56,029 bases of DNA, from positions 1 to 56,029 of IMG/VR virus record IMGVR_UViG_3300021559_000001. One strand, written 5' to 3'. A program made the translations under genes and the position numbers. The notes under the pieces were generated by a model. That model saw only the letters and a list, made by a program, of their open reading frames with translations. It was not told the origin of the DNA and did not search any database. Positions 30 through 46,127 of this stretch are shown here, piece by piece. How positions within the stretch are numbered: position 1 is the stretch's first letter; every line of letters begins with the position of its first letter. This DNA comes from a virus (lineage: Duplodnaviria; Caudoviricetes).

Positions 30-464
30 GGAGTTGGGATTGGTTTTGAATCCGTGAACCTCCGCAACCAGGTAGCCGGTTCCTGTGGTTGTGATCTGAA
101 TTCGCACGTAGGGGAAATAGCCCGTTGCGCGAATCTCTCCTTGGGTGGTTGCTGTTGTCGGATTGGTGAATGGGGATACGATCGTGCCGGCGAAGTTGAC
201 GAAGGTTCCGGCAATGCCTCCTGTTCCCAAGGGAGCATCCTGCAGGAGCACCGAGACTGTTGCGAAGCCGTTGGAAGAGTAGGTCACTACGAAGCCATCG
301 CAGCCCGCGAATCGATTGTCTATATTCTGGCTGGTGAAGGTTCCTGCTGTGGTGATGGGGGGATTTACGAATTTACCGCAGTCTGGCTGTTGTGAGGTGA
401 CGGGGGTGAGTTGCTGGGCTTGGAGGAGAGTACCTAAGAAGAGTGTAATTAGAGTGAGTTTCAT
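1..464 (-). CDS. N-terminal part of a ~332-aa secreted/virion protein that spans the circular junction (continues 56000->55466)
   Basis: ATG at 464 gives MKLTLITLFLGTLLQAQQ... (signal-peptide-like); reading through the junction (..FSG-C-TAGSPCV-VDGPT..) stays in frame with ORF 55466..55978. Confidence 0.8.
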   Translation of the reverse strand, partial: MKLTLITLFLGTLLQAQQLTPVTSQQPDCGKFVNPPITTAGTFTSQNIDNRFAGCDGFVVTYSSNGFATVSVLLQDAPLGTGGIAGTFVNFAGTIVSPFTNPTTATTQGEIRATGYFPYVRIQITTTGTGYLVAEVHGFKTNPNSGSASAIFSG

Positions 465-521
465 GATAAACCGCCGTCGTGCTGTCCAGCCGGTTCGGAA
501 TGCCAGTGCGCGGGAAATGTC

Positions 522-556: not shown

Positions 557-628
557 TGCGGCGTGGAGCAGAGGCAGCTCGGCAGGCTCATAACCTGTAG
601 GTCGCCGGTTCGAGTCCGGTCGCCGCAA
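557..628 (+). tRNA. tRNA-Met(CAT), initiator-like
   Basis: Acceptor TGCGGCG/CGCCGCA, D-arm GAGC..GCTC, anticodon loop CTCATAA, T-arm GCCGG-TTCGAGT-CCGGT; no encoded CCA. Confidence 0.9.
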
Positions 629-3103: not shown

Positions 3104-3162
3104 GAGGCTCCTTGGAATCTTGGGGGTAAACCGCCGTCGTGCTGCGGAGGAAGGTTTCGGGT

Positions 3163-3190
3163 TTGACTTCGCGCGGTGGAAGTGTATAAT
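3163..3190 (+). promoter_or_regulatory. Strong sigma70-type promoter inside a cassette
   Basis: TTGACT-16-TATAAT. Confidence 0.65.
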
Positions 3191-3283: not shown

Positions 3284-3450
3284 TTCAAACTGGCCCCCGC
3301 GCAATGCCGATTCTGAGCCTGCGTCGATCCTTCAGCCCAAACTAAGGTCCTCATCCTGTAAGTACCTAGAACCAACGGCCTAGGTGAAGAAATAGAACCG
3401 AATTCGGACACGCTGGGACTGTTTCCCGCGTCTCTAAGGCAGGAGAATAA

Positions 3451-4202: not shown

Positions 4203-4269
4203 GAGTTCCCCCGCGCAATGCCGACTCCGAGCCTGCGTCGAATATTGAGCCCAAACCATAAAAACCCTG

Positions 4270-5166
4270 TTACCCGTTTACCGGCCCACTCACTGGAATT
4301 CGTTCCATCCCATCAAATATAATCTGCCACACATTCCCTTGAGCAACTGATTGCACCGCGTACAGATCGACTAGAATCTGACTCTGCCGCGGATAAAGGA
4401 TCCCTGGACAGGGGAACACTCCAGGCATCGGCGCCGGATCGGCCTGAAAGATCGGGGAAATCTGGTCGATGATGTAGGAATCCGGCACGGGCGCATTGGA
4501 AAGCGGATAGCCGCTCGAATCGTACAGCCAGTAATTGAAGACGCCCACGCGATCGGTGGTGACCAGCGGGACGCCTCCCGACAATGGCGGAGTGGCCGTT
4601 CCCGTGTCGAGTTGAATGATCCGATGGAGCTCGAAGTCGAGCCCGGCATTGATTCTTACGCTGAACCGCTGGTGATTCCCTCTCGTCCACGTTACAGGCC
4701 CCACGTTGAGCACGTACTGATAGCCGCGGGTGATGTAACCGGGACACGGATACGGCGCCTTCTCCCACGGAAACCGCTTGACCCCCTGGAATGCAAGGTA
4801 CGCAAGGAAGTCGGTTCCACCCGAGACCGCTACCGCTTTCGTAATCGTGGCGAGGTCGAAACGGATCTGGCTTTCCCGCGGGTAGTGTTTTTCAGGAACG
4901 ACGCTGATGTCCGCTTGTGGCCCTGCGATCGCCGCGGCCGGCAGCCAGGCGTAGGAGTTGCTGTAGTTGCGATAGGCGAAGAATTGCGCGATCGACGACG
5001 CGCCCGCGATCCGTCGAAGGATAAATTCCGCATCTCCATCGAGTTTGGTCGAGAGGGTATTGTTGACGCTGGTTCCATTCGTCAACCCGGTTCCGTCGAA
5101 CATGTAGATGTAAGGCACGTCATGGCAGCCTGGGGGGGTGATGTAGGGGGAGTATAGGTTGCTCAT
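4270..5166 (-). CDS. Putative two-domain jelly-roll-like minor capsid/vertex protein, paralog of 6744..7598
   Basis: Closely similar to ORF 6744 throughout (MSNLYSPY.TPPGCHD.PYIY.FDGTGLTNGT); internal two-repeat structure. Confidence 0.7.
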   Translation of the reverse strand: MSNLYSPYITPPGCHDVPYIYMFDGTGLTNGTSVNNTLSTKLDGDAEFILRRIAGASSIAQFFAYRNYSNSYAWLPAAAIAGPQADISVVPEKHYPRESQIRFDLATITKAVAVSGGTDFLAYLAFQGVKRFPWEKAPYPCPGYITRGYQYVLNVGPVTWTRGNHQRFSVRINAGLDFELHRIIQLDTGTATPPLSGGVPLVTTDRVGVFNYWLYDSSGYPLSNAPVPDSYIIDQISPIFQADPAPMPGVFPCPGILYPRQSQILVDLYAVQSVAQGNVWQIIFDGMERIPVSGPVNG

Positions 5167-5302
5167 GAGGATGCCTTTTGGGGTGAACCTCGGTCGTGCT
5201 GTCCGCCAAGGTTACGCGCGGCCGTGCCCCCGGTGGAAGTGATTTCCCCCGCGCAATGCCAGCCGCGAACCTGCGTCGATAATCGAGCCCAAACTAAAAA
5301 CG

Positions 5303-6508
5303 TCATGACGGTAGCAAGCACCTCTTAACGGGTCCCGGACTGCTGGGCGACAGAAGCATGACCAGTAGACTATGAGCGGTGGCCGGAGCATGGGCGGCAT
5401 CCTGCTCGGTCCAGGTGATACCGTCTGCTGATTTGAAGATGCGAATCTGATAGCTGATCGGCAGCCCCTCATGGAAAAACAGCGTTACGTAGAGCGGATT
5501 ACCAGCCCCGCCCGGCCCGACGTAGTAACCGGCATCGGTCGCGCCGTTTTGGGATAGCGCCGTGACAATCCCGAAAGCTCCGCTTGCGAGCTGCGCCGCC
5601 GATAGAGAGAAAATAAATTGGCTAGCGGCAGGCACGCCAGGCACGGGATTAGCTACCGCGTCATAAAACAAAGCCGGCGCGCTCCAGACTCCCGCGATTC
5701 GCGTGCTCTTGAACACGCTAATCACCGTCGGCGAGTTGTTCGTGTTCCAAAAGAGATTCAAATTGCCGGAATTGTCCACAACCAGGTACTCATCCTGATC
5801 GATATCGGTATTCGGGAGCGTGGTGTCGACCTGTTCAAATGTCCAAACCGGAGTAATCGAAGTGGCTGGATTTCCGAACCATACCCCAACCGGAAACGGC
5901 GATACTGTCGAGAAATACCCGAAAGCGATCTGACCGTTCCATAGCACTGGCGTCGAAATGAAACCACTCGGCGCACCCGCATCCGCCAGGATGACTTGAC
6001 CAAGATTCACCACGCCGCCCGTCGATAGAGTGCCGTGCATCATGATAGTAGGGCTCAGAATATTAGTTTGGTGCTGAAAGTAGATGACATGGATTAAATT
6101 GTTCTGATCTACGATTGCCTGAACGAAGCCCGGCTCATTGCTAACGTTGACCACACTTGGAGTGAAAACAGTTTGAGGTCCCCAGACGCCGCCGCTGAAG
6201 ACCCGGTAAAACAGGTTGCTTCCGCTGCCCGTCCCGCCCCCGAAGAACACGTAAACATCGCCGCTCGCAACCTGACAGCTAGCTCGAAATGTTCCATTGG
6301 CAGGCAACGTAAACCCGGCATCGGGAACTCCGTATGCATCCGTCACCATGCTGTAGTTGACCACATGGATATGGCCTGGAAAGATGGGGTCGACGTAGAC
6401 CAGGCGGATGAAACCGGCTGCTGGCTTCTGAAATGGCCCCATAAAGCCATTGCTGGCGTTATTCTGCAAGCTCAGGTTTGTAGGGTCGATCAGGTTTGGG
6501 CTGGGCAC
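5303..6508 (-). CDS. Beta-propeller (BNR/Asp-box-like) putative spike/receptor-binding protein
   Basis: Repeated blades (YRVFSGGVW, VDQNNLIHVIY, VDNSGNLNLFW) and the Asp-box KSADGITW. Confidence 0.6.
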   Translation of the reverse strand: MPSPNLIDPTNLSLQNNASNGFMGPFQKPAAGFIRLVYVDPIFPGHIHVVNYSMVTDAYGVPDAGFTLPANGTFRASCQVASGDVYVFFGGGTGSGSNLFYRVFSGGVWGPQTVFTPSVVNVSNEPGFVQAIVDQNNLIHVIYFQHQTNILSPTIMMHGTLSTGGVVNLGQVILADAGAPSGFISTPVLWNGQIAFGYFSTVSPFPVGVWFGNPATSITPVWTFEQVDTTLPNTDIDQDEYLVVDNSGNLNLFWNTNNSPTVISVFKSTRIAGVWSAPALFYDAVANPVPGVPAASQFIFSLSAAQLASGAFGIVTALSQNGATDAGYYVGPGGAGNPLYVTLFFHEGLPISYQIRIFKSADGITWTEQDAAHAPATAHSLLVMLLSPSSPGPVKRCLLPS

Positions 6509-6743: not shown

Positions 6744-7598
6744 TCAGATCACCCCCTCATCCGGAACCCGCTCCACTCCATCAAACACAATCTGCCAGCA
6801 ATCCCCGTTCGGCGTGCTCTCGGTCGCGTAGAGGTCTACTACGATTTGAGAGAACCGCGGATAGAGCAAACCGGGAACCGGGAAAACTCCCGGCATGGGA
6901 CTAGGGTCCGCTTGGTCGATGGGGGAAATTTGATCGAGGACGTAGGAATCGGGAACCGGCGCGTTTGAAACCGGATACCCGTTGGCATCGTACAGCCAAT
7001 AATTGAAAACTCCGACCCGATTTGTCGGGACGTTGGTTCCGTTGCACTGAATGATTCTCATCAACTCGAAATCGAATCCTGCGTTGACGCGCACGCTGAA
7101 CCGCATGTACTGGGGTCGAGTCCAGGTGACCGCTGGCACGTTGAGCACGTACTGAAAGCTTCGCGGCGTGAAAGGGCAGGGACGAACCGGACTGCTCCAC
7201 GGGAAGCGCTTGACGCCCTGGAACGCGAGATACGACAGGAAATCCGTTCCACCCGAAATTGCCACGGCCTTTGCGATCCCGCCGAAGTCAAAGCGGATCT
7301 GGCTGTCTCGCGGATACACTTTCTCCGGCGCCACGCTGATATCGGCCTGCGGACCTGTTACGGAAGCCGCCGGAAGCCACACATACGAATTGCTGGCGTT
7401 GCGGTAGGTGAAGAATTGCGCGATCGAGGACGCGCCGGCGATTCGTCGAAGAATAAAATCCGCATCCCCATCGAGTTTCAGCGAGAGCGTGTTATTGACC
7501 GTGGTTCCGTTCGTGAGGCCCGTACCATCGAACACGTAGATATAGGGCGCGTCGTGACATCCAGGAGGGGTTAGGTAAGGCGAGTATAGATTACTCAT
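6744..7598 (-). CDS. Putative two-domain jelly-roll-like minor capsid/vertex protein (284 aa)
   Basis: GGAGG RBS before ATG 7598; paralog of 4270..5166. Confidence 0.7.
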   Translation of the reverse strand: MSNLYSPYLTPPGCHDAPYIYVFDGTGLTNGTTVNNTLSLKLDGDADFILRRIAGASSIAQFFTYRNASNSYVWLPAASVTGPQADISVAPEKVYPRDSQIRFDFGGIAKAVAISGGTDFLSYLAFQGVKRFPWSSPVRPCPFTPRSFQYVLNVPAVTWTRPQYMRFSVRVNAGFDFELMRIIQCNGTNVPTNRVGVFNYWLYDANGYPVSNAPVPDSYVLDQISPIDQADPSPMPGVFPVPGLLYPRFSQIVVDLYATESTPNGDCWQIVFDGVERVPDEGVI

Positions 7599-7631
7599 GA
7601 AACCTCCGAGTATCGCCACGGCGCGCCACAT

Positions 7632-8090
7632 TCAATATCCCCTCCGGTAGCGGTTCGGACCCCGGAAAACCACTTGCACGTTTTGATTGACCGCGGCCAC
7701 GTTGATGATGTCAAAGTGGATCGCTTGCCGCTGCCCAGGTCCTCTTCGATAGCTTACGGCCGGAAATTGCGGGAAGGGATTAGCCCACGTTCCCGGCGTG
7801 TTGTTCGAGTACAGAAAGCCGTCGCTGATGTAGTTGCCGGCGTCGTCCTGGACACGATAGAGGAAGCCCGGTCCTGAGACAGCGAAGATGAACGCGCGCC
7901 AGATAAATTCGTCCGCATCGCTGAGCACGATTACCTGATTGTTGAGCACCTGGTTCCCTGTCATCACCTGGAATCCGCCAGAGGGGGGCCAGATCATAGC
8001 GGCGTCCACGTCTTCGCAGCCTTGGGGGGAGGCTGGGTTGAACCCGTTCAAGTAAGGTGGAGCTGCCGGGTTGAAGATTTCTTGGCTCAT
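7632..8090 (-). CDS. Putative single jelly-roll-like structural protein (152 aa)
   Basis: Shares GNQ.L..DAD.F.W..F...QD..GNY.S with ORF 8574 and the repeats of 4270/6744. Confidence 0.65.
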   Translation of the reverse strand: MSQEIFNPAAPPYLNGFNPASPQGCEDVDAAMIWPPSGGFQVMTGNQVLNNQVIVLSDADEFIWRAFIFAVSGPGFLYRVQDDAGNYISDGFLYSNNTPGTWANPFPQFPAVSYRRGPGQRQAIHFDIINVAAVNQNVQVVFRGPNRYRRGY

Positions 8091-8164
8091 AGGATGAGTG
8101 GGGGTAAACCTCGGTCGTGCTGTCCAGACGATTCGGAAATACCCGAGCCCTGATACAATGTGCA

Positions 8165-8393
8165 TGTTAGCGTCGGCGTGGTGGCAAGCACGCTCGGAAG
8201 TGTGAGAACGACGGGGTTACTACAGGGGTTCTGATATGCGCGTGATGAGTGACAGCAGGGGGAAGCCCCCGGGATCACATGCACCAAGTCACGGCTGTTC
8301 GGTCCGGTATACTGCGAAGTTAAGCCCTGCTTGACGGTCGATCTGCGCTCACTGCTGAGGGTCGAAAGCCGGTTCGAATCCGGCACGCTAACA
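8165..8393 (+). ncRNA. tRNA-like RNA with ~160-nt expanded anticodon arm
   Basis: Acceptor-like helix TGTTAGCGT/ACGCTAACA, D-arm GCGTG-GTGGCAAG-CACGC, perfect T-arm GCCGG-TTCGAAT-CCGGC; extended -10 TGaTACAAT at 8151-8159. Confidence 0.7.
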
Positions 8394-8573
8394 ACGGCTG
8401 AACTATGACAAGAAAACAGCGCAAGCAATGAAATGCAAACCGGCGCTACCGTGTGCGGCGCAAACAAAAGCGGCAGAAGATGCGAAATGCCCAAAGGCCT
8501 ACCGGGAGATAATTCCCCCGCGCAATGCCGATTACTAACCTGCGCCGATAGTCGAGCCCAAACTAAAAGCATT

Positions 8574-8996
8574 CTACCTAATCCCCATCCGAGTGCTCAT
8601 CGCCTCAGGTCCACAAACAGGAGGTGGAACCACAAATCTCTTGATCCCGACGAATCCAAGCTGAATAATATTCTGAACTCCGCTCTGCTCCTGCAGGTCC
8701 GCTGTGATCTGAGAGCCAGGCGGGAACACGCGGGGCTTGCCCATGAAAGTGTAAGGTAGCGGCCCTTGTGCGTTGATGTTGGCCGCCAGAATCGGCGAAC
8801 TCGAGAAATAGTTACCGCCTGAGTCCCGGAACTGCACCGTGAACAGGATCGAAGTGAAGGCGTTCAGGATGAGCCCCAGCAAGAGAAAGTCAGAATCGGT
8901 GTCGGTGCGTACGCCGTCGCCTGTCAGCAGTTGATTGCCTACCATTGTCACGTCGTAGTTGTAGGTGAAGCTTAAGTCTCCGAAGTATCCGTTCAT
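8574..8996 (-). CDS. Putative single jelly-roll-like structural protein (140 aa)
   Basis: GAGG RBS; DTDSDFLL..VQFRDSGGNYFSS pattern homologous to ORF 7632. Confidence 0.65.
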   Translation of the reverse strand: MNGYFGDLSFTYNYDVTMVGNQLLTGDGVRTDTDSDFLLLGLILNAFTSILFTVQFRDSGGNYFSSSPILAANINAQGPLPYTFMGKPRVFPPGSQITADLQEQSGVQNIIQLGFVGIKRFVVPPPVCGPEAMSTRMGIR

Positions 8997-9112
8997 AGCT
9001 GGGCCTCTTGAATCTTTGGTGATAAACCGCCGTTGTACTCTCGTCTCGCTTCGGAGATACCCGAGCGCTGGGGCCGGTTGCGCGGGCCATGCTGGACCGC
9101 TACAGTGAGCGC

Positions 9113-11818: not shown

Positions 11819-12799
11819 TTACTGCAAAATCGTGTGGGGGCGCCCGGCTACCACTTTCAAAACGTTCGTGCCGCCCGATCCAGTGGCGGATTGTTTGACC
11901 AGGATGATATTGTTGGCATCCGCCGTGATCCCCCAATTGGCAAGCGCCGCATTGGCCGTGCTCGGAATCACGGTGCCGTTTACGAAATCCGGCTGGACAC
12001 TGACTCCCCCGGTGATTCCAAACTGCAAAAATCCATGCGGGAAAGAAAAGCCGGTATCGGTGTCGCAGCAGGAAATCAGCCAGGATTTATATTGAGGCTG
12101 ACCCGGTGGTGGAATCTGCGATCCGGTTATGACCGGCGTAGCAATGAAACACCCTGACGCTCCGTTCGTACCGCCCGCCGTAAATGTATTGGTGATGGTG
12201 TTGGCTTGTAAGGTGACTGCGCCTGTCCGCGCCATCGCTCTCCCACTGAGCGTGGCGCCGGTGTTGATCGTGACCGAAGCTTGGGCCATGATCGTGCCCA
12301 GCATGGTTGCAGTCGTTCCGATAGTGGCCGAGCTTCCCACTTGCCAGAAGACATTTGCCGCCAGTGCTCCATTTGCCAAAACTACAGAAGCGGCGTTGGC
12401 TACCGTGAGAGTGCTCGGAATCTGGAAAATCCAAACTGCTGCCGCATTGCCTTGGGCGTCGAGGGTGAGAACCCCCGTGAGGCCTACGGAAGAATTGGAT
12501 TTGTAGACCCCAGGCGGGAGAGTTTGTCCACCCAGGTCGCCCACGATCAAAGTACCGCCAGATCTATTTGCCGCGTCGTTGAATGCGGTGGTTAAATCCA
12601 GTTGAGCCTGAGCCGCGGCCGCGTTGGCGATATCTTGCGCGCCGGTGACAGTTCCAGGAGGGAAGCCGGTGACCGATGTTCCAGGACTTAAGCCGAGCTT
12701 CCCGGTGATAGCCGTGGCCCCTGTGCTGGTGACAGTTGAAGCGGCTAAAACGGGATAACCGGATGCCGATCCGAGTCCTACAGTCGGTACGATGGGCAT
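11819..12799 (-). CDS. DUF3494 ice-binding-domain protein fused to the spike/decoration domain
   Basis: Typical DUF3494 motifs (LGLSPGTSVTGFPPG, DLGGQTLPPGVY, LTLDAQG..AVWIFQI, ANVFWQVGSSAT, GRAMARTGAVTL); C-terminus PHTILQ. Confidence 0.9.
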   Translation of the reverse strand: MPIVPTVGLGSASGYPVLAASTVTSTGATAITGKLGLSPGTSVTGFPPGTVTGAQDIANAAAAQAQLDLTTAFNDAANRSGGTLIVGDLGGQTLPPGVYKSNSSVGLTGVLTLDAQGNAAAVWIFQIPSTLTVANAASVVLANGALAANVFWQVGSSATIGTTATMLGTIMAQASVTINTGATLSGRAMARTGAVTLQANTITNTFTAGGTNGASGCFIATPVITGSQIPPPGQPQYKSWLISCCDTDTGFSFPHGFLQFGITGGVSVQPDFVNGTVIPSTANAALANWGITADANNIILVKQSATGSGGTNVLKVVAGRPHTILQ

Positions 12800-20432: not shown

Positions 20433-20666
20433 TCATAATGGTTTGGTCTCGACGGTCGTAACAATTTTGGCTTTCGGTAGCGCTGCGGCGATCCGCTCTT
20501 TAATTACTGGCTCCTCGTCGCTGAATCGGTTGATATCGCCTAAGTCGATTTGCGCCTCACCGACATGGTTGATGAGCAGCACGCTGGGATTCTCGGTTCC
20601 TTGCCCGTACTGGACGATCAAGTCCGCTCTCGCCGCTCCGCTCGATAGGCTGATGATGGCGCTCAT
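20433..20666 (-). CDS. Hypothetical protein (77 aa)
   Basis: ATG 20666 (MSAIISL) overlapping the upstream stop. Confidence 0.5.
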   Translation of the reverse strand: MSAIISLSSGAARADLIVQYGQGTENPSVLLINHVGEAQIDLGDINRFSDEEPVIKERIAAALPKAKIVTTVETKPL

Positions 20667-21487
20667 AGCAACCACGGGCTCCCGATCCCGCCTCCTACAA
20701 ATGCCGGAACGAACATGCCGAGTCCTGAAAGGCTGAAGCCCGCCACCTGGTTTTGCATGAGCTGATACCACTGGTCAATGGTGATGGGTGTGGTTCGATC
20801 CCCTATGGTGCCATCCGTCAAATTTGCGCCCACGGCGTTATAGCCGGTTGGGTCGATGTTGCCTGGGTCGACGGGGCAGGCGTTGCCGGAAATCTGCGTG
20901 TAAAAGTAGCACCATTCGTCGGTGCTGAACAATGCGCCACTGGCCAGCGCTGCCATTTTCTGCAACGTGGTTTGAATTGGTGGAGCGGGTACGCAAGCGC
21001 CCGCGCCATTGTCCACTAGGCCGCCAGTGCAAACGAGAGGTTGGTTCTGAGGAGCGGGTTGCACAACTGTCCATCCGCATTTCCCATCCGCTTGCTGGCT
21101 TATGCCGTTCAGTACCGCGACGGTTCCGGCCGCTGGACATCCTTGCGGTCCTCCTCCCAAAATCTTTGCCGCTGCCGCATCCGCTGCTGCCTTTGCGGCT
21201 GCGGCCGTCGCTGCTGCGGCTGCCGCTTGATCCGCCACGGCTTTTGCCGCCGCTGCGTCGGCTGCTGCTTTCTGCGCCGCCGCCTGGGCGGCCGCGTCGC
21301 CTGTATTCTTTTGAGCCGCTGCCGCTAAGACCGCTGCTTTATCGGCTGCCGCTTTCGCCGCTGCCGCCGCTGCTGCCGGATCGACCACCGCTGCCGCCAC
21401 GGTCACATTGAACGGCCACAGCTTTTCTATGTAGGCGTAGGCGAGGTATCCCCCGACGCCGATCAGGAGAATGGTCGTGGTGTCCAT
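20663..21487 (-). CDS. N-terminally anchored Ala-rich coiled-coil virion protein
   Basis: MDTTTILLIGVGGYLAY TM, AAAKAAAD repeats, C-domain DEW..FY..DP..DQWY..GLGM. Confidence 0.7.
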   Translation of the reverse strand: MDTTTILLIGVGGYLAYAYIEKLWPFNVTVAAAVVDPAAAAAAAKAAADKAAVLAAAAQKNTGDAAAQAAAQKAAADAAAAKAVADQAAAAAATAAAAKAAADAAAAKILGGGPQGCPAAGTVAVLNGISQQADGKCGWTVVQPAPQNQPLVCTGGLVDNGAGACVPAPPIQTTLQKMAALASGALFSTDEWCYFYTQISGNACPVDPGNIDPTGYNAVGANLTDGTIGDRTTPITIDQWYQLMQNQVAGFSLSGLGMFVPAFVGGGIGSPWLL

Positions 21488-21498
21488 CTGCTGGGGCA

Positions 21499-22182
21499 CT
21501 ACTTCCCGCCTCCAAATAAAATTGCTCCAGCAATCGCCGCTATCGCTAGTCCAAGCAAACAATTTCCAAGTGTGGTAGTCGCCGGTCCGCAGGGATCGGG
21601 TTGACCGCAAGCCTCCGCGGCCGTCTGTGTAATCGAGGGCATGGGAGCAATCAACATGGCGCGGGTGAGAACCAGCTTCAGCGGTCCTGACTGGGGAGCG
21701 GGCTGCCGGCATCCGGGAATCTGATCCGCCCACGGTGCACATCTTGGATCGAGGCAGGAACTCACTCCCGTGTACCCCGCATTGGCGCAATCGGCGATGA
21801 GTTGCGCCCCTGCTTTCGATTGCGGAACGGCGCCGCACGCGATCTGTAAGCACGTATCCTCGTCCGGTTCGGGCCGGCCGTAATGCGCCATGAAATCCGC
21901 CGGTGATACCGCTCCCATCCCGCAGCCTTGAACCTGAGCCACGCCGATGGTCGGAGAGAGATCCGCTGGGCTGAGCATGCTTGGTTGCAAGGCTGGGGGA
22001 ACTTCAAAATCCGGGTAGTAGGTGAAGCCTGTAGGATGATTGTCGTTTCGCAGCCATCCCATCTCCTGATCGAATACTGGGGAGAGCTGGGTGATGTCGA
22101 AGGTGGATTGAGAAGGGGCTGTAGCATTGGTGATGAAGCCGGAGCCGCCTTCTTCTGTGCAGTACTCGATTACACCCAGCAT
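21499..22182 (-). CDS. Cys-containing membrane-anchored virion protein
   Basis: AAGGA RBS right after motif C'; GMGA; C-terminal TM. Confidence 0.65.
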   Translation of the reverse strand: MLGVIEYCTEEGGSGFITNATAPSQSTFDITQLSPVFDQEMGWLRNDNHPTGFTYYPDFEVPPALQPSMLSPADLSPTIGVAQVQGCGMGAVSPADFMAHYGRPEPDEDTCLQIACGAVPQSKAGAQLIADCANAGYTGVSSCLDPRCAPWADQIPGCRQPAPQSGPLKLVLTRAMLIAPMPSITQTAAEACGQPDPCGPATTTLGNCLLGLAIAAIAGAILFGGGK

Positions 22183-24670: not shown

Positions 24671-24930
24671 AATGTTTCCTTTTCTGTGGATAAACCGCCG
24701 TCGTGCTGCCTTTGAAGGTTTCCGGTAATCGAGCCCGCCGTGGTTGTGATTGTGCCTGATGGCGCAATGTGAATGGGTGGCATCACGCAGCCCGTCATCG
24801 TAAATGTGGCTGCCTGAGGTATCGTTTGAATCTGAATTGGTCTGCGACCCACCTGAACAGTCGCGCCGGCCGCCGCGCTCCCGCGATTCAGAAGCGGTTT
24901 CCAAAACAGTAGCCAAAGTAAACGCTTCAT
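24661..24930 (-). CDS. Hypothetical protein ending through motif A
   Basis: ATG 24930 (MKRLLW) overlapping the upstream stop. Confidence 0.45.
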   Translation of the reverse strand: MKRLLWLLFWKPLLNRGSAAAGATVQVGRRPIQIQTIPQAATFTMTGCVMPPIHIAPSGTITTTAGSITGNLQRQHDGGLSTEKETLWT

Positions 24931-30599: not shown

Positions 30600-30950
30600 G
30601 TGTTTGAAAACTTCTCACCTATCAACGATCAGCTACTCATTAAAGTATTACCCTCTCCCTCAGAAGAGAAGGGAATCGTCATCCCGGATTCAGCCAAGCC
30701 GAAAGCCATCTTCGCGGATGTGATCGCAGTCGGGCCGGGGAGGAGGGGCCGATTGTTGCGTTGCGCCAGGTGCGCGGATCGTTTCATCCCCGAGCGTCTA
30801 TCCCTCGACGTGAAACCTGGAGACCGCATCGTCTTCCACCCGGCCGTACGCTCCTACAGGGCAAGAGAAGCGGAAGTAGATTTACAGTCTCAGCAGGAAA
30901 CCATCATCATCCGCGAGGATTCGGTGCTGGCGGTAATTGAGTCCGACTGA
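30600..30950 (+). CDS. groES: Co-chaperonin GroES/Cpn10
   Basis: PINDQLLIK..GIVIPDSAK.K..VIAVGPG..VKPGDRIVF..IIREDSVLAVIE. Confidence 0.9.
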   Translation: MFENFSPINDQLLIKVLPSPSEEKGIVIPDSAKPKAIFADVIAVGPGRRGRLLRCARCADRFIPERLSLDVKPGDRIVFHPAVRSYRAREAEVDLQSQQETIIIREDSVLAVIESD

Positions 30951-33447: not shown

Positions 33448-35141
33448 GCGGCTATCAGTCCTTTCAGGGCTTCCAGATAATACTTTTCCTGTTCGTCGGC
33501 GTCTTGCTCGAAGCTGTTTTTCTTTCGGAGCACGTTCTCCATCACTAGACCTTCGAGGTGCCGAATGATCGGAAGGTGGATATGGACGGTGTTGGTTTGC
33601 CCGTAGCGCAGGGCCCGGCGCACGGCTTGATAGAAGCGCTCATAGGAATCGTCCCAGCCGGAGAAGATCATCGACGTACAGCACTGGAAGTTCATTCCGA
33701 AGCCGAGCAGTGACGCCTTACTAATCAGGATATCGAGTTGCCCCTTGCGGAATTTCTCGATCAGTGAGATTCGGTCCTTCTGTTTGACTTTGCCGTCCAG
33801 CAAACATGAGCCGATTCCCCGCGCGGCCAATTCTTCCGCGATCAGTTGCCCTTCCTCGTCGAATACGGTCCAGATGAGCACCTGGCGGCCGGCTTTCATT
33901 TCCGCAATGGCGACATCGGCAACTCTCGCCGGCTTCAGCGAGGGGATGAGCCTGACCGTGGTTTTCTTGCCTGTCTTTTCGTAAATGAATCCCTTGGCGA
34001 TTTGGCTCAACTTGGTCCGCTGAACCACGCCGATATTCTGCGTTCCGAGCAGGCCTGCGCCGGCCTCGAAATAGATGCGGTTCTGTTCGTCGATCTGTTC
34101 CGGCGTCGGGTCGATGTCGTATTCATGGAAAACTGGGGGTGGAATCGACGCGAGATTATCGGACCATCCGTACATTTTCGGATTGCGGAGATAGATCGAC
34201 CATGAAGCCAGAAAGCGGTAGAACCCTTCGCGCGCGTGAGGCTTGATGCGCCATTCCCCTTTCTTGTCCCTGGAAAAGAAGGTCCACAGGATATCACTCT
34301 CGGTTCTGAGTTTCTCGATAAACGCCGCCTGGCTCGCGTACTCCATTACCTCGTTGGGCGCCGGGGTCGCTGTGCAGGAGAGTTTATATTCGATCCCCTT
34401 GGCGGATTTGATCAGGTTCCACTTGATGACGCCGCCGCCTGATTTCAGGATTGAGGATTCATCGCAGATCAGGCCGCCCAGCAACCGGAGTTGCGGTAGC
34501 AAGCCGGGAATCATCTTGTCGTAGTTCGTGATTGCCAGTTCGCAGCCGGGCGCTTCGAGCCATTCTTCCAGTTCCTTACGGGTCTCCAGTTTCTTGACTA
34601 GCAGGGCATCGCCGTAGAATTTCGTGGACTCATCGCAGGTTTGCTCAATGATCTGCAACGGCGAAAAGATCAGCACCTTGCGACCGATCGCTGCCAGGAC
34701 ATGCCGCGCCCATTCCAGGAACATGGCCGTCTTACCTAAGCCGCAATCGGCGTAAATCGCATACCGCTGCGCTTTCAGTGCCTGCTTGACGATGAATTGC
34801 TCATAGTCGAACAGGTACGCGGCGATCTGGAGTTTCTCTGCTGGTGTCGCCGGGGCCGGGATGCCGAGCATTGGAAGAAACCGCGCCGGCGTGCTGATGG
34901 TGTAGGAATCGCTCTCCCAGTCGTAGGTGGTTTGGAATTCTGGAAGCCTTTTGCAGTTCAGGAATAGGTCGTAGTGGGCGAGGTCGAAGGTGTCGAAACA
35001 AATACGGGCCGTCGAGCCGTCGATCTGAATTCCCCCGCGCAATGCCGATTCTGAATCGGGCGGTACCGTCGAGCCCAAACCATCTTGAGTCTGATTTTCC
35101 AAGGTGGGCAGTACAGATGAGGCCAAACTATCCGTTTCCAT
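33444..35141 (-). CDS. SNF2-like SF2 helicase
   Basis: ADCGLGKT, ICDESS, CTATPAPN, GFGMNFQ, QAVRRALRYGQ. Confidence 0.9.
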   Translation of the reverse strand: METDSLASSVLPTLENQTQDGLGSTVPPDSESALRGGIQIDGSTARICFDTFDLAHYDLFLNCKRLPEFQTTYDWESDSYTISTPARFLPMLGIPAPATPAEKLQIAAYLFDYEQFIVKQALKAQRYAIYADCGLGKTAMFLEWARHVLAAIGRKVLIFSPLQIIEQTCDESTKFYGDALLVKKLETRKELEEWLEAPGCELAITNYDKMIPGLLPQLRLLGGLICDESSILKSGGGVIKWNLIKSAKGIEYKLSCTATPAPNEVMEYASQAAFIEKLRTESDILWTFFSRDKKGEWRIKPHAREGFYRFLASWSIYLRNPKMYGWSDNLASIPPPVFHEYDIDPTPEQIDEQNRIYFEAGAGLLGTQNIGVVQRTKLSQIAKGFIYEKTGKKTTVRLIPSLKPARVADVAIAEMKAGRQVLIWTVFDEEGQLIAEELAARGIGSCLLDGKVKQKDRISLIEKFRKGQLDILISKASLLGFGMNFQCCTSMIFSGWDDSYERFYQAVRRALRYGQTNTVHIHLPIIRHLEGLVMENVLRKKNSFEQDADEQEKYYLEALKGLIAA

Positions 35142-39069: not shown

Positions 39070-40219
39070 TGCTTTGGACTCTGCATTAACTTATCCACCT
39101 TAGCCAGAGCTGATACTAATCCAGCGTCAACCCGCGCTTGACTCGGTGATACTGGCTTCGGTGGCTTATGCAGATCGAGCACGCTGAGGGCTACCCATAC
39201 ACAGGTCAATTCCTCTTCAGTCAGTTCCAAGTTGTATAGAAGAATGGGCATTAGCGGTTCTTAGGTTCGGATTTTTGTTTGGGTTGAAGGCTGGAAACGG
39301 GCTCAGATTTGCCATTGCGCGAGGGTTGCCGCTGATTGTGAAAGCGGGCGCGCGCTATCAGGTACTCCAGTGTCGAGACTACCCGGTCATGGATCGTGTA
39401 GGAGCTGTTACCCAGTTCCCCCACGATTTCGCGGTAGTGGCGTAAGGCCGTGTTTTCCAGGTCAATCAGATCGGCTTCGGTGGGTGGTTTCATCGACGGG
39501 CCTCGTAAGTTTCAGGCTGGGCATGAAAGCGCTGGGCGCGTCTCCGGTCAGTGGTTCTCAGAACGCGAAACGAAAGCGAAAACCAGCGAATAAACCATTT
39601 GCCGGCCGTGGCGCGGTCCAGGTGAAGGCTCAGGCAATCCGGCAGGGTCGCGGTGCAAATGGCGCAGAACGGGCGGTACAGACCAAAACTCGGCTTTGCT
39701 AGGCGCTCATGGCACATCGGGCACTCCTCCGCGTGTAGAATTGCAAACCATGTCATTCGATCAGATGCCCCATGTGCTCGCAAACGCAATTACCCGGAAT
39801 TTTTGGAATGTCGGTTGGTGGAAGTCCTGAATTAGGATCATGCCGGAAGACTCGCTGGCTTGAGCAATCGAGTCCGTTATTTGACTCTGGCGGCCAGAAT
39901 ACCCAGAGGACACAAGGGAATTCGCCAGCCTTTTCCGCATCGACGCCATGTCCAGATTCAGGGCAGGGCCGTTCCACCAAAAATTGCACCGTCCGCCGTT
40001 CGTTCACCCGCGCCGCCTCTCGCCGCCCTCGTACCCCTTTGAAATTTGCAGACTCGTCGATTGCAAATTCTGCATATGCCTTAAAAACTCCAAGTGCCTT
40101 AACCAACTCGCCGATAGAAATAGATCTCGTGATTGTTCCGCATCGTAAAATCCTGCAATTGCTTCTTGTTCTGATTGGCTCATGATGATCTTATCGGCTG
40201 ATGTTAGAAGTAGCGGCAT
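39066..40219 (-). CDS. Cluster of small hypothetical ORFs (39066-39251, 39251-39493, 39490-~39789, 40004-40219)
   Basis: Overlapping start/stop codons for the first three; some starts uncertain. Confidence 0.45.
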
Positions 40220-40282
40220 AGGACTTTAGTTTGAATTCGGCTGCGATGCGGGGTTCTGGTCGGAGGTCCGCGTGTCGGCTGT

Positions 40283-40546
40283 TCATGACGCCTCCACGAA
40301 CACATGCCAAACGAACGCGCCATTAGGCGTCTGAACGGTATCAATAAACGTGAGCGGGACGCTTGGTACGGTGTGTCCAGTCCCGACAATCCAAACGGCC
40401 CGCCTTTCTTGGGGCCGCTCAGGAGCAACAATCGCCCACACCTGCAATTCCCCGTGTTGCCACTGGGCACGCAGAAAGACGCCACCGCCTGGAATCCTGA
40501 TTTCCTGCCGGTCCTGAATCTTTAGCGTGAATTTCCAGATCGTCAT
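40283..40546 (-). CDS. Conserved phage hypothetical protein (MTIWKF..VGTGH..WHVF)
   Basis: Pattern recognised from small phage proteins; lies between motifs B (40629) and C (40225). Confidence 0.65.
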   Translation of the reverse strand: MTIWKFTLKIQDRQEIRIPGGGVFLRAQWQHGELQVWAIVAPERPQERRAVWIVGTGHTVPSVPLTFIDTVQTPNGAFVWHVFVEAS

Positions 40547-40675
40547 TGCGGCCACTCCATCGGAACACCTTGCCCGTAATAGGCAATCCAGAACGAAACC
40601 AGCACCACGAAGCCGCCCAGCACAGCCGCCGCGCACTGTCGAGCACGGGGCAGGGTCGATAGATAAGCCCAAATT

Positions 40676-41374
40676 CTAAGCATTGTTTTTCTCCAACTGT
40701 CTCCGAAGATTCTGAACCGTCTCCGTCATCAACTGGATCATGTCTTGCGGATCTCGAACCGCTAAACGGTACGTCTCTGGAAACAACTGCTCAAAGTTTG
40801 ACCGTAAGCATGCTACTAGGGAGTTGTAATCGTATACTCCGATACGCAACTTTTCAAGCCGATCAATCGAGGCTTTCGCGCATTCGTAAGCGTTGGTTGG
40901 ATCGGGAATGCGTTCTTCCGTATTTGAATCCGGCTGCGCTGCAAGGTCTGGTGTGGGAGGTCCGCTCGGTGGCGGGTCAATAATGCGTGGACCAACTTTG
41001 GCGTAGCTTCGCGGGCACGTCACACCCCAACCAAAAATATCCCAGTCCTCACCATTCCATTCCGCAATGCGCCAGTTATCCTGATACCACACCCAGTAAT
41101 AGCCTTCGCGCAATGCCGACTCTGAACCGGGCGGTACAGATAAGCCCAAACTATCGGCATCTTTTTTGTTTGAATCCGGCTGTGCTGCAAGGTCTGGGGT
41201 GGGAGGTCCGCCTGTTGGTTGGCTCTCCAGTTTATCAAGCCGTGCGTGAAACCTGTTTCCGCGTGCCTCTAGCTTCATGGTCCGGCGCTGCAACTCATCC
41301 AACTCGATCTTGACCAACTTCGCCAGATGGATTACTTCTGGATTAAGAACCACTGGAGGTCCAGGAATGTTCAT
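40676..41374 (-). CDS. Mosaic protein with motif-derived linkers
   Basis: GPPTPDLAAQPDSN x2 (motif C) and LGLSVPPGSESALREG (motif B) flank a Trp-rich mini-domain. Confidence 0.65.
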   Translation of the reverse strand: MNIPGPPVVLNPEVIHLAKLVKIELDELQRRTMKLEARGNRFHARLDKLESQPTGGPPTPDLAAQPDSNKKDADSLGLSVPPGSESALREGYYWVWYQDNWRIAEWNGEDWDIFGWGVTCPRSYAKVGPRIIDPPPSGPPTPDLAAQPDSNTEERIPDPTNAYECAKASIDRLEKLRIGVYDYNSLVACLRSNFEQLFPETYRLAVRDPQDMIQLMTETVQNLRRQLEKNNA

Positions 41375-41610
41375 CGGGGTTTCTCCAGTTGAACAATCCG
41401 CGTGCTCCAACTGGCTTCAACTCGTTGAAGTTCGGCGCGCCAGAGGTCCCGCATGTCATCGAAACGCTGGTTTACCGCTTCAAAGCGCTTATCCACAGCA
41501 TCGAATCGGCTGTTCATGTGAGACCACAGGAGACCAAACAGCACGCCGTTAAAAATCAGATTGGCGATGATCGGCACGCCAATGGCAAGGTACAACTGCG
41601 TGTTGCTCAT
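41371..41610 (-). CDS. Small TM plus coiled-coil protein, paralog of 44193..44396
   Basis: TQLYLAIGVP..HMNSRFDA..RFDDMRDLWRAEL. Confidence 0.75.
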   Translation of the reverse strand: MSNTQLYLAIGVPIIANLIFNGVLFGLLWSHMNSRFDAVDKRFEAVNQRFDDMRDLWRAELQRVEASWSTRIVQLEKPR

Positions 41611-41687
41611 CAGTACACCCCCTCCTTGAACGCCTGAATCCCTCCCGTGATAGCCAGAGCGCAGATATCCCGGCTGGTCAATTCCAT
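41610..41687 (-). pseudogene. 25-codon duplicate of the 3' end of gene 42513..43103
   Basis: MELTSRDICALAITGGIQAFKEGVY vs ..FELTSRDICALAITGGIQAFREGVY. Confidence 0.8.
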
Positions 41688-41688
41688 T

Positions 41689-43103: not shown

Positions 43104-43107
43104 GGGC

Positions 43108-44588: not shown

Positions 44589-44594
44589 ACACCG

Positions 44595-44673
44595 ATTATG
44601 CCATTGTGCCTAGCGGCAAGCAAGAAGTATTTCACCTTAGTTACTTGACGGTAGGCAGGAAAGGCTCTATACT
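44595..44673. promoter_or_regulatory. Divergent sigma70-type promoter pair
   Basis: Minus: TTGCTT-17-CATAAT (44623-44595); plus: TTGACG-17-TATACT (44645-44673). Confidence 0.65.
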
Positions 44674-46085: not shown

Positions 46086-46127
46086 AACCTTGGCGGAAAG
46101 CACGACGGCGGTTTACCCCAAAAACCC

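What the first reader, a model, noticed from the sequence alone, without database searches (positions are those of the whole stretch)
8165..8393. Unclassified ~230-nt tRNA-like RNA with a greatly expanded anticodon arm, carried as cassette cargo
Seen: an 8-9-bp acceptor-like helix, a D-arm with GG in the loop and a canonical T-arm. The anticodon stem (CTCGG/CTGAG, then GTGAG/CTCAC) opens into ~150 nt with further stems (GCAGGG/CCCTGC, GGGG-GAAG-CCCC). An extended -10 box places the TSS at its 5' end. It lacks the G3-U70 alanine identity of tmRNA, and I saw no group I/II intron cores. Inference: a tRNA mimic (decoy for anticodon nucleases or synthetases), an intron-containing tRNA, or a new ncRNA class.
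Basis: partly seen in the sequence, partly recalled or inferred. Interest (0 to 1): 0.72.

Follow-up and report, generated by a model that had tools for sequence, protein, structure and literature searches.

The report
Conserved phage tRNA-like RNA with insert
A soil phage carries a gene for an RNA that looks like a transfer RNA except that 150 extra bases sit where the anticodon loop should be; a second phage keeps the same RNA with matching changes on both sides of its stems, so it is probably functional, but what it does is unknown.

Summary
At 8166-8393(+) there is a tRNA frame: an 8-bp acceptor, a D arm, a 5-bp anticodon stem and a consensus T arm. A 150-nt insert (8198-8347) interrupts it. 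ARAGORN finds it only in intron mode, and found nothing comparable in 40 shuffled genomes. Rfam 15 matches nothing.

The window is a complete 56-kb bacterial phage from soil. The RNA lies antisense in a variable spacer that is empty or holds other cargo in relatives.

Translating the spurious antisense ORF and searching proteins found one homologue, P0002. Back-translation shows 3 of 8 acceptor pairs and 1 of 5 T-stem pairs changed on both sides while still pairing. It also shows the same insert length, near-invariant insert flanks and a diverged centre. A canonical-looking tRNA follows 6 nt downstream. So this is a selected RNA, not a relic.

It is unlikely to decode: every excision junction leaves U at position 37, and position 8 is C.

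Best reading (0.45): a non-decoding tRNA mimic or scaffold matured by tRNA-processing enzymes. Main rival (0.2): a tRNA with a new kind of intervening sequence. There is no expression data, and the family has only two members.

The parts
8151..8159 (+). Extended -10-like box TGaTACAAT. Its last base lies 7 nt before G8166.
   Evidence: Read. Not listed by the consensus scan because it has no -35 element. The same -10-to-5'-end spacing is seen by eye at the phage's tRNA-Met (TACAAC 545-550, tRNA starts at 557). The first bases (TGATA) are shared with the empty spacer element of relative G002.
8166..8393 (+). tRNA-like RNA gene: a 78-nt tRNA frame plus a 150-nt insert.
   Evidence: ARAGORN intron mode. 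0 hits in 40 shuffled genomes. Homologue found through P0002.
8166..8173 (+). Acceptor 5' strand. Pairs with 8385-8392 to give 8 bp.
   Evidence: Pair probability 0.79-1.0 in the unconstrained ensemble. In the homologue, 3 of 8 pairs changed on both sides and all 8 can still pair.
8176..8193 (+). D arm: GCGUG/CACGC with loop GUGGCAAG. ARAGORN draws a 4-bp version with one mismatch.
   Evidence: pair probability 0.67-0.68. No definite change in the homologue.
8193..8197 (+). Anticodon-stem 5' strand CUCGG. Pairs with CUGAG at 8355-8359.
   Evidence: Pair probability is only 0.01 in the unconstrained ensemble. Invariant in the homologue, so the pairing is untested by covariation.
8198..8347 (+). 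150-nt insert at the position of the anticodon loop.
   Evidence: z = +0.93. The length is the same in the homologue: 69 aligned antisense codons between the T loop and the 5' strand, without a gap.
8174..8223 (+). Conserved block A: position 8, D arm, anticodon-stem 5' strand and the first 26 nt of the insert.
   Evidence: 1 definite difference in 51 positions (8174-8224), against 18 of 87 in the centre.
8225..8311 (+). Diverged centre of the insert. Helix 8241-8246/8288-8293 is kept through changes. The GGGGG/CCCCC hairpin is not kept in register.
   Evidence: Pair 8244-8290 changed on both sides and can still pair. Pair 8259-8269 cannot pair in the homologue.
8318..8366 (+). Conserved block B: the last 30 nt of the insert (including predicted hairpin 8319-8335), CUCACUG, the anticodon-stem 3' strand and the variable loop.
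   Evidence: 1 definite difference in 55 positions (8312-8366). Hairpin predicted.
8368..8384 (+). T arm GCCGG/UUCGAAU/CCGGC.
   Evidence: C8370-G8382 became T-A in the homologue. Nearly identical to the T arm of the phage's tRNA-Met.
8385..8392 (+). Acceptor 3' strand. No CCA is encoded after it.
8394..8503 (+). Rest of the cargo: A-rich, poorly folding, unexplained. In the homologue a canonical-looking tRNA sits here instead.
   Evidence: z = +1.24. Homologue's second tRNA.
8087..8572 (-). Open frame of 161 codons across the whole spacer (a 'bridge ORF'). It starts just after the upstream gene's stop and ends in an ATGA overlap with the next gene's start. It is probably not a protein with a function of its own.
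   Evidence: Flat GC by codon position, 0.55/0.55/0.57, against 0.53-0.57/0.42-0.46/0.68 in the neighbouring genes. No Pfam or PHROG family. ATGA overlap.
8097..8150 (.). Conserved intergenic element next to the downstream gene's start (repeat families D15/D17).
8504..8578 (.). Conserved intergenic element next to the upstream gene's stop (repeat families D1/D2/D7).
7632..8090 (-). Downstream flanking gene (153 codons), conserved in relatives.
8574..8996 (-). Upstream flanking gene (140 codons), conserved in relatives.

Best explanation
This is a functional, independently transcribed phage gene for a tRNA-like RNA that does not decode.

Shown:
- A tRNA-derived frame with a 150-nt insert, conserved in a second phage.
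- In that phage, base changes in the acceptor and T stems are compensated.
- In that phage, a normal-looking tRNA follows 6 nt downstream.

Inferred:
- The RNA is made by host RNA polymerase from the TGaTACAAT box, starting at or near G8166.
- The intact acceptor/T-arm minihelix and the D/T-loop elbow let the tRNA-processing enzymes (RNase P, 3' trimming, CCA addition) mature and stabilise it.
- The near-invariant core (D arm, anticodon stem, variable loop and the two ends of the insert) is the working surface. It could bind or block a host or phage factor that normally recognises the anticodon side of a tRNA, or it could present the insert as a payload on a tRNA scaffold.
For: 1. The tRNA frame is significant: found, with 0 hits in 40 shuffled genomes. 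Default ARAGORN calls it once the insert is removed.
2. One homologue exists, P0002. Back-translated into window coordinates:
   - Acceptor: 3 of 8 pairs changed on both sides, and 8 of 8 can still pair.
   - T stem: 1 of 5 pairs changed on both sides, and 5 of 5 can still pair.
   - Inner helix 8241-8246/8288-8293: one double change and one single change, and 6 of 6 can still pair.
3. Conservation is very uneven: 1/51 and 1/55 definite differences in the two core blocks, against 4/8, 18/87 and 6/26 elsewhere. The insert length is unchanged.
4. In the homologue the RNA sits 6 nt upstream of a cloverleaf-compatible tRNA with a YTCRAAN T loop and a UGN anticodon. That is a tRNA-cluster context.
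5. It is unlikely to decode. For every junction tried (k = 0-7) the loop ends in U-G, so position 37 is U. Position 8 is C, the acceptor has 8 bp and the variable loop has 8 nt. Purine-37 and U8 are near-universal in tRNAs (established knowledge).
6. The antisense frame does not look coding.
7. The spacer is a cargo site with different contents in relatives.
Against: - No expression data: no RNA run is listed for this phage.
- Only two members. The second is known only through a back-translated protein, so a third of its bases are undetermined, silent changes are invisible and an ungapped alignment is assumed.
- It could be found only because its antisense frame is open, which is an ascertainment bias.
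- The core blocks never vary, so their pairing is untested.
- Folding energy gives no support for a structured insert: z = +0.93, and end-to-end pairing has p = 0.07-0.09.
- The anticodon stem has probability 0.01 in the unconstrained ensemble.
- No partner or target is known. There is no complementarity elsewhere in the genome beyond chance: 2 shared 12-mers against 2.4 expected.
- The promoter is a match by eye, and its first bases belong to the conserved spacer element.
Confidence: 0.45

Rival explanations
1. It is an intron-containing tRNA. The 150 nt are an intervening sequence removed after transcription, either by a new self-excising RNA or by host nucleases plus a ligase. The product would be a 78-nt tRNA read as Val(CAC) by ARAGORN.
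For: - ARAGORN intron mode calls tRNA-Val(cac) with a 150-nt intron after position 31.
- The frame without the insert passes default ARAGORN.
- The two ends of the insert are far more conserved than the acceptor stem, and its length is fixed, as expected if the ends carry splicing signals.
- The last insert base is G.
- In the homologue it lies in a tRNA cluster.
- The 5' end of the insert (GUGAG) can pair with the would-be anticodon loop (CUCAC), as introns often do.
Against: - Every possible junction gives U at position 37. Junctions with k >= 2 also give A at position 33.
- Position 8 is C, the acceptor has 8 bp and the variable loop has 8 nt.
- No group I or II intron or self-cleaving ribozyme family matches, even at E<=10 in a 241-nt search.
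- 150 nt is shorter than any group I intron I know of (recalled).
- The 5' exon ends in G or A, not U.
- I saw no bulge-helix-bulge motif, and the host is bacterial (DnaB helicase).
- No RNA ligase, RtcB or endonuclease family appeared in 70 window ORFs scanned with Pfam.
- The insert folds no better than shuffles.
Confidence: 0.2
2. It is a relic: a tRNA gene captured as cargo, broken by an insertion, no longer functional and simply not yet decayed.
For: - No RNA family matches.
- The core has non-canonical features.
- The insert is not thermodynamically special.
- The element is absent from G001, G002 and 11 of 11 metagenomic relatives of the flanking gene.
- DNA pattern searches found nothing: 0 matches in viral, metagenome and genome collections.
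Against: - A second phage keeps it, with compensatory changes in two stems, an unchanged length and near-invariant blocks, while the flanking spacer elements have diverged.
- In the window, no stem of the frame has a mismatch when the D stem is read as GCGUG/CACGC; ARAGORN's 4-bp drawing of the D stem has one.
Confidence: 0.08
3. The selected object is not the + strand RNA. It is instead the - strand reading frame across the spacer (a translated bridge ORF or small protein), or a DNA-level site, and the tRNA shape is inherited baggage.
For: - The 161-codon antisense frame is open. It starts right after the upstream stop and ends in an ATGA overlap with the next start.
- The homologue's frame is open too, at 160 codons.
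- The same arrangement recurs at 8 of 15 such elements in the window, 3 of 15 in G001 and 2 of 9 in G002. Keeping the frame open may therefore be selected, which would also favour changes in multiples of three.
Against: - A need to stay open explains neither paired changes on the two strands of the acceptor and T stems nor a consensus T loop.
- There is no codon-position GC signal and no protein family.
- The two conserved ends of these ORFs are nucleotide repeats found in many spacers.
- The homologue carries a second, ordinary tRNA in the same antisense orientation.
Confidence: 0.1
4. It is a tmRNA-like RNA: a chargeable tRNA-like domain joined to an internal message (the 32-codon frame at 8237-8335).
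For: - The topology is tmRNA-like: the ends pair as an acceptor, a T arm is present, and a large internal domain replaces the anticodon loop.
- An AGGGG lies 8 nt before an AUG that opens 32 codons.
- An 8-bp helix with a G:C first pair recalls the histidine microhelix (recalled).
Against: - There is no G3:U70 pair.
- ARAGORN tmRNA mode found only a nonsense permuted call at a lowered threshold.
- No Rfam tmRNA match.
- A D stem is present, unlike tmRNA as I recall it.
- The AGGGG is not conserved in the homologue: 8224 and 8226 are changed.
- The peptide has no recognisable degradation-tag ending.
Confidence: 0.03

Closest known systems
Canonical phage-encoded tRNA genes (Rfam RF00005), such as this phage's own tRNA-Met at 557-628
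   Same: - Acceptor, D, anticodon and T helices, with a consensus T loop and GG in the D loop.
- Carried as accessory cargo antisense to the flanking genes, with a -10 box 7 nt before the 5' end.
- The T arm is almost identical to that of the tRNA-Met.
   Different: - 150 nt replace the anticodon loop.
- 8-bp acceptor, C at position 8, 8-nt variable loop.
- No junction gives a purine at position 37.
- Not found by the Rfam tRNA model or by default ARAGORN.
Phage T4 RNAC and RNAD, small stable RNAs made from the tRNA region, function unknown
   Same: A non-tRNA small RNA of unknown role encoded with phage tRNAs. I read passages in PMC3014915 and PMC9697503. In the homologue, the RNA studied here lies 6 nt from a tRNA.
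   Different: - No sequence similarity to anything in 50,697 phage records, which I assume include T4.
- That RNAC/RNAD have tRNA-like ends is my recollection, not something a call showed.
- Sizes and host groups differ.
tmRNA (SsrA)
   Same: A tRNA-like domain formed by the two ends of the RNA, with a large internal domain in place of the anticodon arm.
   Different: - No G3:U70 pair.
- No detected tag frame, resume codon or pseudoknots.
- It has a D stem.
- About 230 nt.
- No ARAGORN or Rfam tmRNA call.
Bacterial tRNA genes with group I introns in the anticodon loop (tRNA-Leu, fMet, Ile, Arg; recalled)
   Same: The intervening sequence is in the anticodon loop of a bacterial-type tRNA gene. 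The last base of the insert is G.
   Different: - No match to the group I model at E<=10.
- Only 150 nt.
- The 5' exon does not end in U.
- The spliced loop would be non-canonical.
YrlA / bacterial Y-RNA-like tRNA mimics (recalled)
   Same: A non-coding RNA that copies the tRNA elbow (T arm, D arm, acceptor-like stem). Also reported in phages (recalled).
   Different: - In YrlA the ends lie in the stem that stands for the anticodon arm, and the acceptor-like stem is closed. Here the ends form the acceptor.
- No Rfam match.
Engineered tRNA scaffolds for expressing RNA inserts in the anticodon stem (recalled)
   Same: The same architecture: a payload placed in the anticodon stem of a tRNA body, which confers processing and stability.
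   Different: Those are man-made. No natural phage example is known to me, and searches listed none.

Membership tests
Canonical decoding tRNA (RF00005) | Cloverleaf with four helices and a T loop of consensus UUCRANY | tested here: met
   ARAGORN intron mode. Default mode calls it after in-silico removal of the insert. T loop is UUCGAAU.
Canonical decoding tRNA (RF00005) | Contiguous 7-nt anticodon loop with U33 and a purine at position 37 | tested here: not met
   The loop is interrupted by 150 nt. For junctions k = 0-7 position 37 is always U, and for k >= 2 position 33 is A.
Canonical decoding tRNA (RF00005) | Score at or above the Rfam gathering threshold | tested here: not met
   No tRNA hit at 8166-8393 at gathering scores or at E<=10. 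The large insert may defeat the model.
Canonical decoding tRNA (RF00005) | 7-bp acceptor, U8, A14, variable loop of 4-5 nt or a long arm | tested here: not met
   8-bp acceptor, C8174 at position 8, G after the D stem, 8-nt variable loop.
tmRNA | G3:U70 alanine identity pair | tested here: not met
   All acceptor pairs are Watson-Crick. The third pair is U-A or A-U, depending on numbering.
tmRNA | Tag reading frame with resume codon and pseudoknots; detected by ARAGORN or Rfam | tested here: not met
   ARAGORN -m gave only a permuted nonsense call at 70% threshold. No Rfam hit.
Group I intron in a tRNA | Conserved core (P3-P8) recognisable by RF00028 | tested here: not met
   No hit at E<=10 in 601-nt and 241-nt searches.
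Group I intron in a tRNA | U at the end of the 5' exon and G at the end of the intron | tested here: not met
   The 5' exon ends in G (k=0) or A (k=1). The last insert base is G for k=0 only.
Archaeal/eukaryal protein-spliced tRNA intron | Bulge-helix-bulge motif at the junctions, and a host with a splicing endonuclease | tested here: inconclusive
   I found no 3-nt/4-bp/3-nt arrangement by eye at the junctions. No dedicated program was run. The DnaB-type helicase points to a bacterial host.
Small stable RNAs of phage tRNA clusters (T4 RNAC/RNAD kind) | Encoded next to, and presumably co-processed with, phage tRNAs | tested here: inconclusive
   In the homologue a cloverleaf-compatible tRNA follows after 6 nt, inferred from a back-translated protein. 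In the window no tRNA is adjacent.
Small stable RNAs of phage tRNA clusters (T4 RNAC/RNAD kind) | Sequence or structure homology to RNAC/RNAD | tested here: not met
   No blastn match of 8093-8573 in 50,697 phage records.
Structured RNA under selection (generic) | Compensatory base changes in predicted helices between homologues | tested here: met
   Acceptor 3 of 8 pairs, T stem 1 of 5, inner helix 1 of 6 changed on both sides. No stem pair of the tRNA frame is broken. The test rests on two sequences, one of them back-translated.
Expressed gene | A transcript with defined ends | not testable with these tools
   Only one DNA run holds the phage, and no RNA holder is listed.

The most novel reading that the evidence does not exclude
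The 150-nt element is a new kind of intervening domain in a bacterial-virus tRNA body. Two forms of this reading remain open:
(a) It is a previously unknown excision system. The near-invariant flanks would be its catalytic or recognition core, and it would leave an unusual tRNA.
(b) It is a natural 'tRNA scaffold' whose conserved anticodon-side core traps or blocks a host tRNA-targeting factor, for example an anticodon nuclease of an anti-phage defence system. The processing machinery would still mature and stabilise the RNA.
Probability: 0.25. Interest if true: 0.8.

Novelty: new variant of a known kind. Interest (0 to 1): 0.55.

Why it matters
Phage tRNAs are increasingly seen as weapons against host defences that cut tRNAs. 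The old small RNAs of the T4 tRNA cluster remain unexplained.

Here is a tRNA-shaped RNA that two divergent soil phages keep. Its stems are compensated, its 150-nt anticodon-side domain has a fixed length, and that domain's ends are almost invariant.

If it is a mimic, it points to a host factor that reads the anticodon side of tRNAs. If it is excised, it would be a tRNA intervening sequence of a kind not known in bacteria. Either way it is small enough to synthesise and test directly.

Tried and rejected
**Searches for further copies of the RNA**
- DNA pattern scans with five stretches of the RNA found 0 matches in viral contigs, 0 in metagenome contigs and 0 in genome contigs.
- blastn of the spacer found nothing in phage records or plasmids.
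- blastn of the two tRNA halves hit only the generic T arm (18-24 nt) in phage tRNA-Asp, -Met and -Glu. The 5' half hit no tRNA.
- Relatives of the phage were reached through the flanking 140-aa protein and an intergenic motif: G001, G002 and 11 metagenome loci. None has the RNA.
- No prophage relative was found in 185,579 species genomes, so the host is unknown.
- The search with the 506-aa protein found nothing.

**The homologue's DNA**
- The viral scan found nothing.
- Protein searches for shorter and longer antisense ORFs found none.
- The representative search gave 8 proteins at E<=0.001. Only 2 of them cover the RNA; the other 6 match only the spacer-end repeats.

**Expression**
- No RNA holder is listed.
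- Laying the single DNA run showed only the source contig. The joints came from the intergenic repeats, and there was no variant without the insert.

**Ideas about the insert that were rejected**
- Internal duplication or a decayed tandem tRNA: 5' exon against insert p = 0.98, 3' exon against insert p = 0.13.
- An antisense target elsewhere in the genome: 2 shared 12-mers against 2.4 expected.
- A structured insert: z = +0.93.
- A significant end-to-end stem: p = 0.07-0.09.
- A small protein from 8237-8335: its AGGGG is not conserved.

**Other**
- ARAGORN intron mode with no length limit is unreliable. It made 2 spurious calls in the window and 3 in 40 shuffled genomes.
- Literature searches listed no comparable phage RNA. 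I saw search listings only.
Full report
**What the window is.** The window is a whole virus record of 56,029 bp with direct terminal repeats, rated 100% complete. The only sequencing run that holds it is a soil metagenome. It encodes a DnaB-type replicative helicase, a second helicase and a DNA methylase, so the host is a bacterium. Most other proteins match nothing. Of 70 window ORFs scanned with Pfam, only those plus an ice-binding-like domain, a Cpn10-like protein, DUF968, DUF7352 and a few weak hits were recognised. No RNA ligase, RtcB, integrase or reverse transcriptase was seen.

**The observation.**
- An 8-bp helix joins 8166-8173 to 8385-8392, with a possible ninth pair.
- A D arm with GG in its loop lies at 8176-8193.
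- CUCGG/CUGAG pair at 8193-8197/8355-8359.
- GUGAG/CUCAC pair at 8202-8206/8348-8352.
- A T arm with the consensus loop UUCGAAU lies at 8368-8384.
- TGaTACAAT at 8151-8159 ends 7 nt before G8166.

Default ARAGORN and Rfam at gathering scores see only the phage's tRNA-Met at 557-628. Rfam at E<=10 gives only chance hits in 601-nt and 241-nt searches. ARAGORN in intron mode calls 8166-8393 as tRNA-Val(cac) with a 150-nt intron after position 31.

That mode is error-prone when the intron length is unlimited: it made 2 spurious calls in the window and 3 in 40 shuffled genomes. With introns of up to 300 nt it gave 0 hits in 40 dinucleotide-shuffled genomes, 2.24 Mb. With the 150 nt removed inside a script, default ARAGORN calls a tRNA up to 110% of its threshold, against 120% for the tRNA-Met. 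The tRNA-derived frame is therefore real.

**What is not supported in the observation.** The insert does not fold better than shuffles (z = +0.93). The whole RNA has z = -0.43 to -0.47. Pairing of the insert's two ends is not significant (p = 0.07-0.09). In the unconstrained ensemble the anticodon stem has probability 0.01, while the acceptor (0.79-1.0), T stem (0.8) and D stem (0.67-0.68) form. Forcing the cloverleaf costs 3.5 kcal/mol. It predicts a rod of about 18 bp beyond the anticodon stem, a hairpin at 8319-8335 and a long irregular arm. The promoter was matched by eye only. Its first bases, TGATA, are shared with the corresponding spacer element of relative G002, which has no tRNA there.

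**Context.** The RNA lies antisense between two conserved - strand genes, 8574-8996 and 7632-8090, in a 480-nt spacer. The ends of that spacer are members of repeat families found in ten or more intergenic regions of this genome.

Relatives were reached through the flanking protein and through an intergenic motif.
- G001 (about 65-80% nucleotide identity, collinear) has a spacer of only about 125 nt and no tRNA at all.
- G002 has no tRNA-like element.
- Among 11 metagenome loci, L082 (84% nucleotide identity in the gene) and L084 have no spacer.
- L085-L088 carry 570-730 nt with other small ORFs, antisense in L085, L086 and L088 and sense in L087. None of these ORFs belongs to a known family.

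The phage's tRNA-Met is cargo of the same kind. It is also antisense, with TTGACC-17-TACAAC ending 7 nt before the tRNA (by eye), and its T arm is almost the same as that of the tRNA-like RNA (p = 0.02).

**Finding a homologue.** DNA searches for the RNA failed everywhere. The - strand frame 8087-8572 is open across the whole spacer although it does not look coding. Its GC by codon position is 0.55/0.55/0.57, against 0.53-0.57/0.42-0.46/0.68 in the neighbouring genes. Gene callers will translate such frames, so I searched its residues 58-138, the antisense of the RNA, against 5.8 billion proteins.

One hit came back. P0002 is a 160-aa 'hypothetical protein' from a 47,013-bp JGI contig, 68% identical over that part. 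A full HMMER search of 1.84 billion representatives with both sequences found 8 proteins at E<=0.001. Only these two cover the RNA; the other six match only the repeat-derived ends. Searches for shorter and longer proteins found none.

**What the homologue shows.** I back-translated P0002 into allowed bases in window coordinates. Only changes that alter the antisense amino acid are visible, and the alignment is ungapped next to invariant anchors.
- Acceptor stem: 3 of 8 pairs changed on both sides (U-A to C-G, A-U to G-C, G-C to A-U). One more changed on one side with an undetermined partner. All 8 can still pair.
- T stem: C-G became U-A, and 5 of 5 pairs can still pair.
- D and anticodon stems show no definite change.
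- Inner helix 8241-8246/8288-8293 has one double and one single change, and all 6 pairs can still pair.
- The GGGGG/CCCCC hairpin is broken in register at 8259-8269.

Definite differences by segment are 4/8 (acceptor 5' strand), 1/51 (8174-8224), 18/87 (8225-8311), 1/55 (8312-8366) and 6/26 (8367-8392). The distance from the T loop to the 5' strand is 69 codons in both, without a gap, so the insert length is the same.

Downstream of the homologue's RNA, after 6 nt, the back-translation is compatible with a standard cloverleaf that has T loop YTCRAAN and anticodon UGN. In the window, that place holds 110 nt of A-rich, poorly folding sequence.

This is the pattern of an RNA under selection. It sits in a tRNA-cluster setting, and its most constrained part is the D arm, the anticodon stem, the variable loop and the two ends of the insert, not the acceptor.

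**How it most likely works.** It is unlikely to be a decoding tRNA.
- Whatever junction is assumed, the two bases before the 3' strand of the anticodon stem are U-G, so position 37 would be U. Junctions that take two or more bases from the 5' side also put A at position 33.
- Position 8 is C, the acceptor has 8 bp and the variable loop has 8 nt.
- Purine-37, U33 and U8 are near-universal in tRNAs (established knowledge).

No known intron or ribozyme family matches. The 5' exon does not end in U. I saw no bulge-helix-bulge motif. No splicing or repair enzyme was recognised in the phage.

My best reading (0.45) is a non-decoding tRNA mimic or tRNA scaffold.
- It is transcribed on its own.
- It is matured and stabilised through its intact acceptor/T-arm minihelix and elbow.
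- It acts through the invariant anticodon-side core.

What that core binds is not known, and a decoy for a tRNA-targeting defence is only a guess. The main rival (0.2) is a tRNA with a new kind of intervening sequence; the conserved insert ends and fixed length fit that as well. A relic (0.08) is made unlikely by the homologue.

**A complication noticed on the way.** The open - strand frame is not an isolated oddity. ORFs that begin in the upstream repeat, right after the preceding gene's stop, run through the spacer and end overlapping the next gene's start codon (ATGA or ATGnTAG). This holds at 8 of 15 such repeats in the window, 3 of 15 in G001 and 2 of 9 in G002. They do this even across antisense cargo, as in L085 and L086.

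If translation across the spacer couples the flanking genes, cargo must stay free of stops in that frame. That would favour changes in multiples of three. It is also the reason the homologue was findable, which is an ascertainment bias. It does not explain paired changes in the stems, so I rate selection on the - strand alone at 0.1.

**Comparison with known systems.** The RNA is not a member of tRNA (RF00005), tmRNA, group I introns or Y-RNA-like mimics by the tests above. The nearest analogues in kind are the small stable RNAs RNAC and RNAD of the phage T4 tRNA region. Passages in PMC3014915 and PMC9697503 state that their roles are still unknown. There is no sequence similarity to them. Three literature searches (listings only) showed no phage tRNA-like RNA with a large anticodon-loop insert.

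**Verdict.** This is a real, unclassified tRNA-like RNA family with two members. It shows first evidence of selection, has no expression data and its mechanism is open. I call it a new variant of a known kind, with interest 0.55.

Noticed in passing
window (-) strand: 2540-1806, 3354-3097, 4259-4074, 5306-5163, 8572-8087, 9574-8993, 41160-41020, 42422-42294: 'Bridge ORFs' of 42-244 codons. Each starts in a conserved repeat just after one gene's stop (peptide M..LVWA.LS...HCAGE), often ends with ...QHDGGLP, and stops in an ATGA or ATGnTAG overlap with the next gene's start. This holds at 8 of 15 repeat copies in the window, 3 of 15 in G001 and 2 of 9 in G002. They stay open even across antisense cargo. 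This may be translational coupling across accessory-gene sites.
   Followed up: partly
window 459-499, 1822-1886, 3119-3183, 5176-5240, 8097-8150, 9015-9073, 24683-24747 and others; 2478-2543, 3292-3357, 4206-4271, 5244-5309, 8513-8578, 35030-35095, 41101-41166, 42372-42437: Two families of conserved intergenic elements of about 55-65 nt flank most structural-gene junctions. The core ACGGCGGTTTAYCCC is shared with relatives G001 and G002 and served as a signature to find G002. Whether they act as promoter, leader or coupling device is unknown.
   Followed up: partly
window 557-628 (+), promoter-like 522-550: A canonical tRNA-Met(CAU) (62.9 bits) is also carried antisense in a spacer. TTGACC-17-TACAAC ends 7 nt before the tRNA. 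Relatives G001 and G002 have no tRNA. A 433-codon - strand frame (461-1762) runs over it and ends in an ATGA overlap.
   Followed up: partly
L085 1000-1218(-), L086 1547-2068(-) = L088 580-1101(-), L087 577-1008(+): In metagenomic relatives the same spacer holds unrelated small ORFs of 72, 173 and 143 aa. None has a Pfam family above threshold; the 72-aa ORF has weak coiled-coil/XhlA-like and spanin-like hits. L082 and L084 have no spacer.
   Followed up: partly
contig behind P0002 (DNA not held): The N-terminal part of the spurious protein P0002 reads like the antisense of an ordinary tRNA (...GFEPR...), anticodon UGN, 6 nt downstream of the tRNA-like RNA.
   Followed up: partly
window 40216-51061 (8 copies, e.g. 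46942-47000): A third repeat family of about 59 nt (TTTGAATTCGGCTG...GGAGGTCCGCG) lies in the other half of the genome (families D5/D13/D14). It may be regulatory sites of the early or replication region.
   Followed up: no
window 4357-5064 vs 6825-7496: Paralogous segments, 73-77% identical over 207 and 300 nt, lie in neighbouring structural genes 4270-5166 and 6744-7631 (D6/D12). The 140-aa and 295-aa neighbours have homologues in G001 and G002.
   Followed up: no
window 11819-12799 (-), 30600-30950 (+), 21153-21401: An ice-binding-like domain protein (E = 9e-63) and a Cpn10/GroES-like protein (E = 1e-11) are encoded here. A GCN-rich tract of 9-15-nt periodicity lies inside ORF 20663-21853 (D3).
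   Followed up: no
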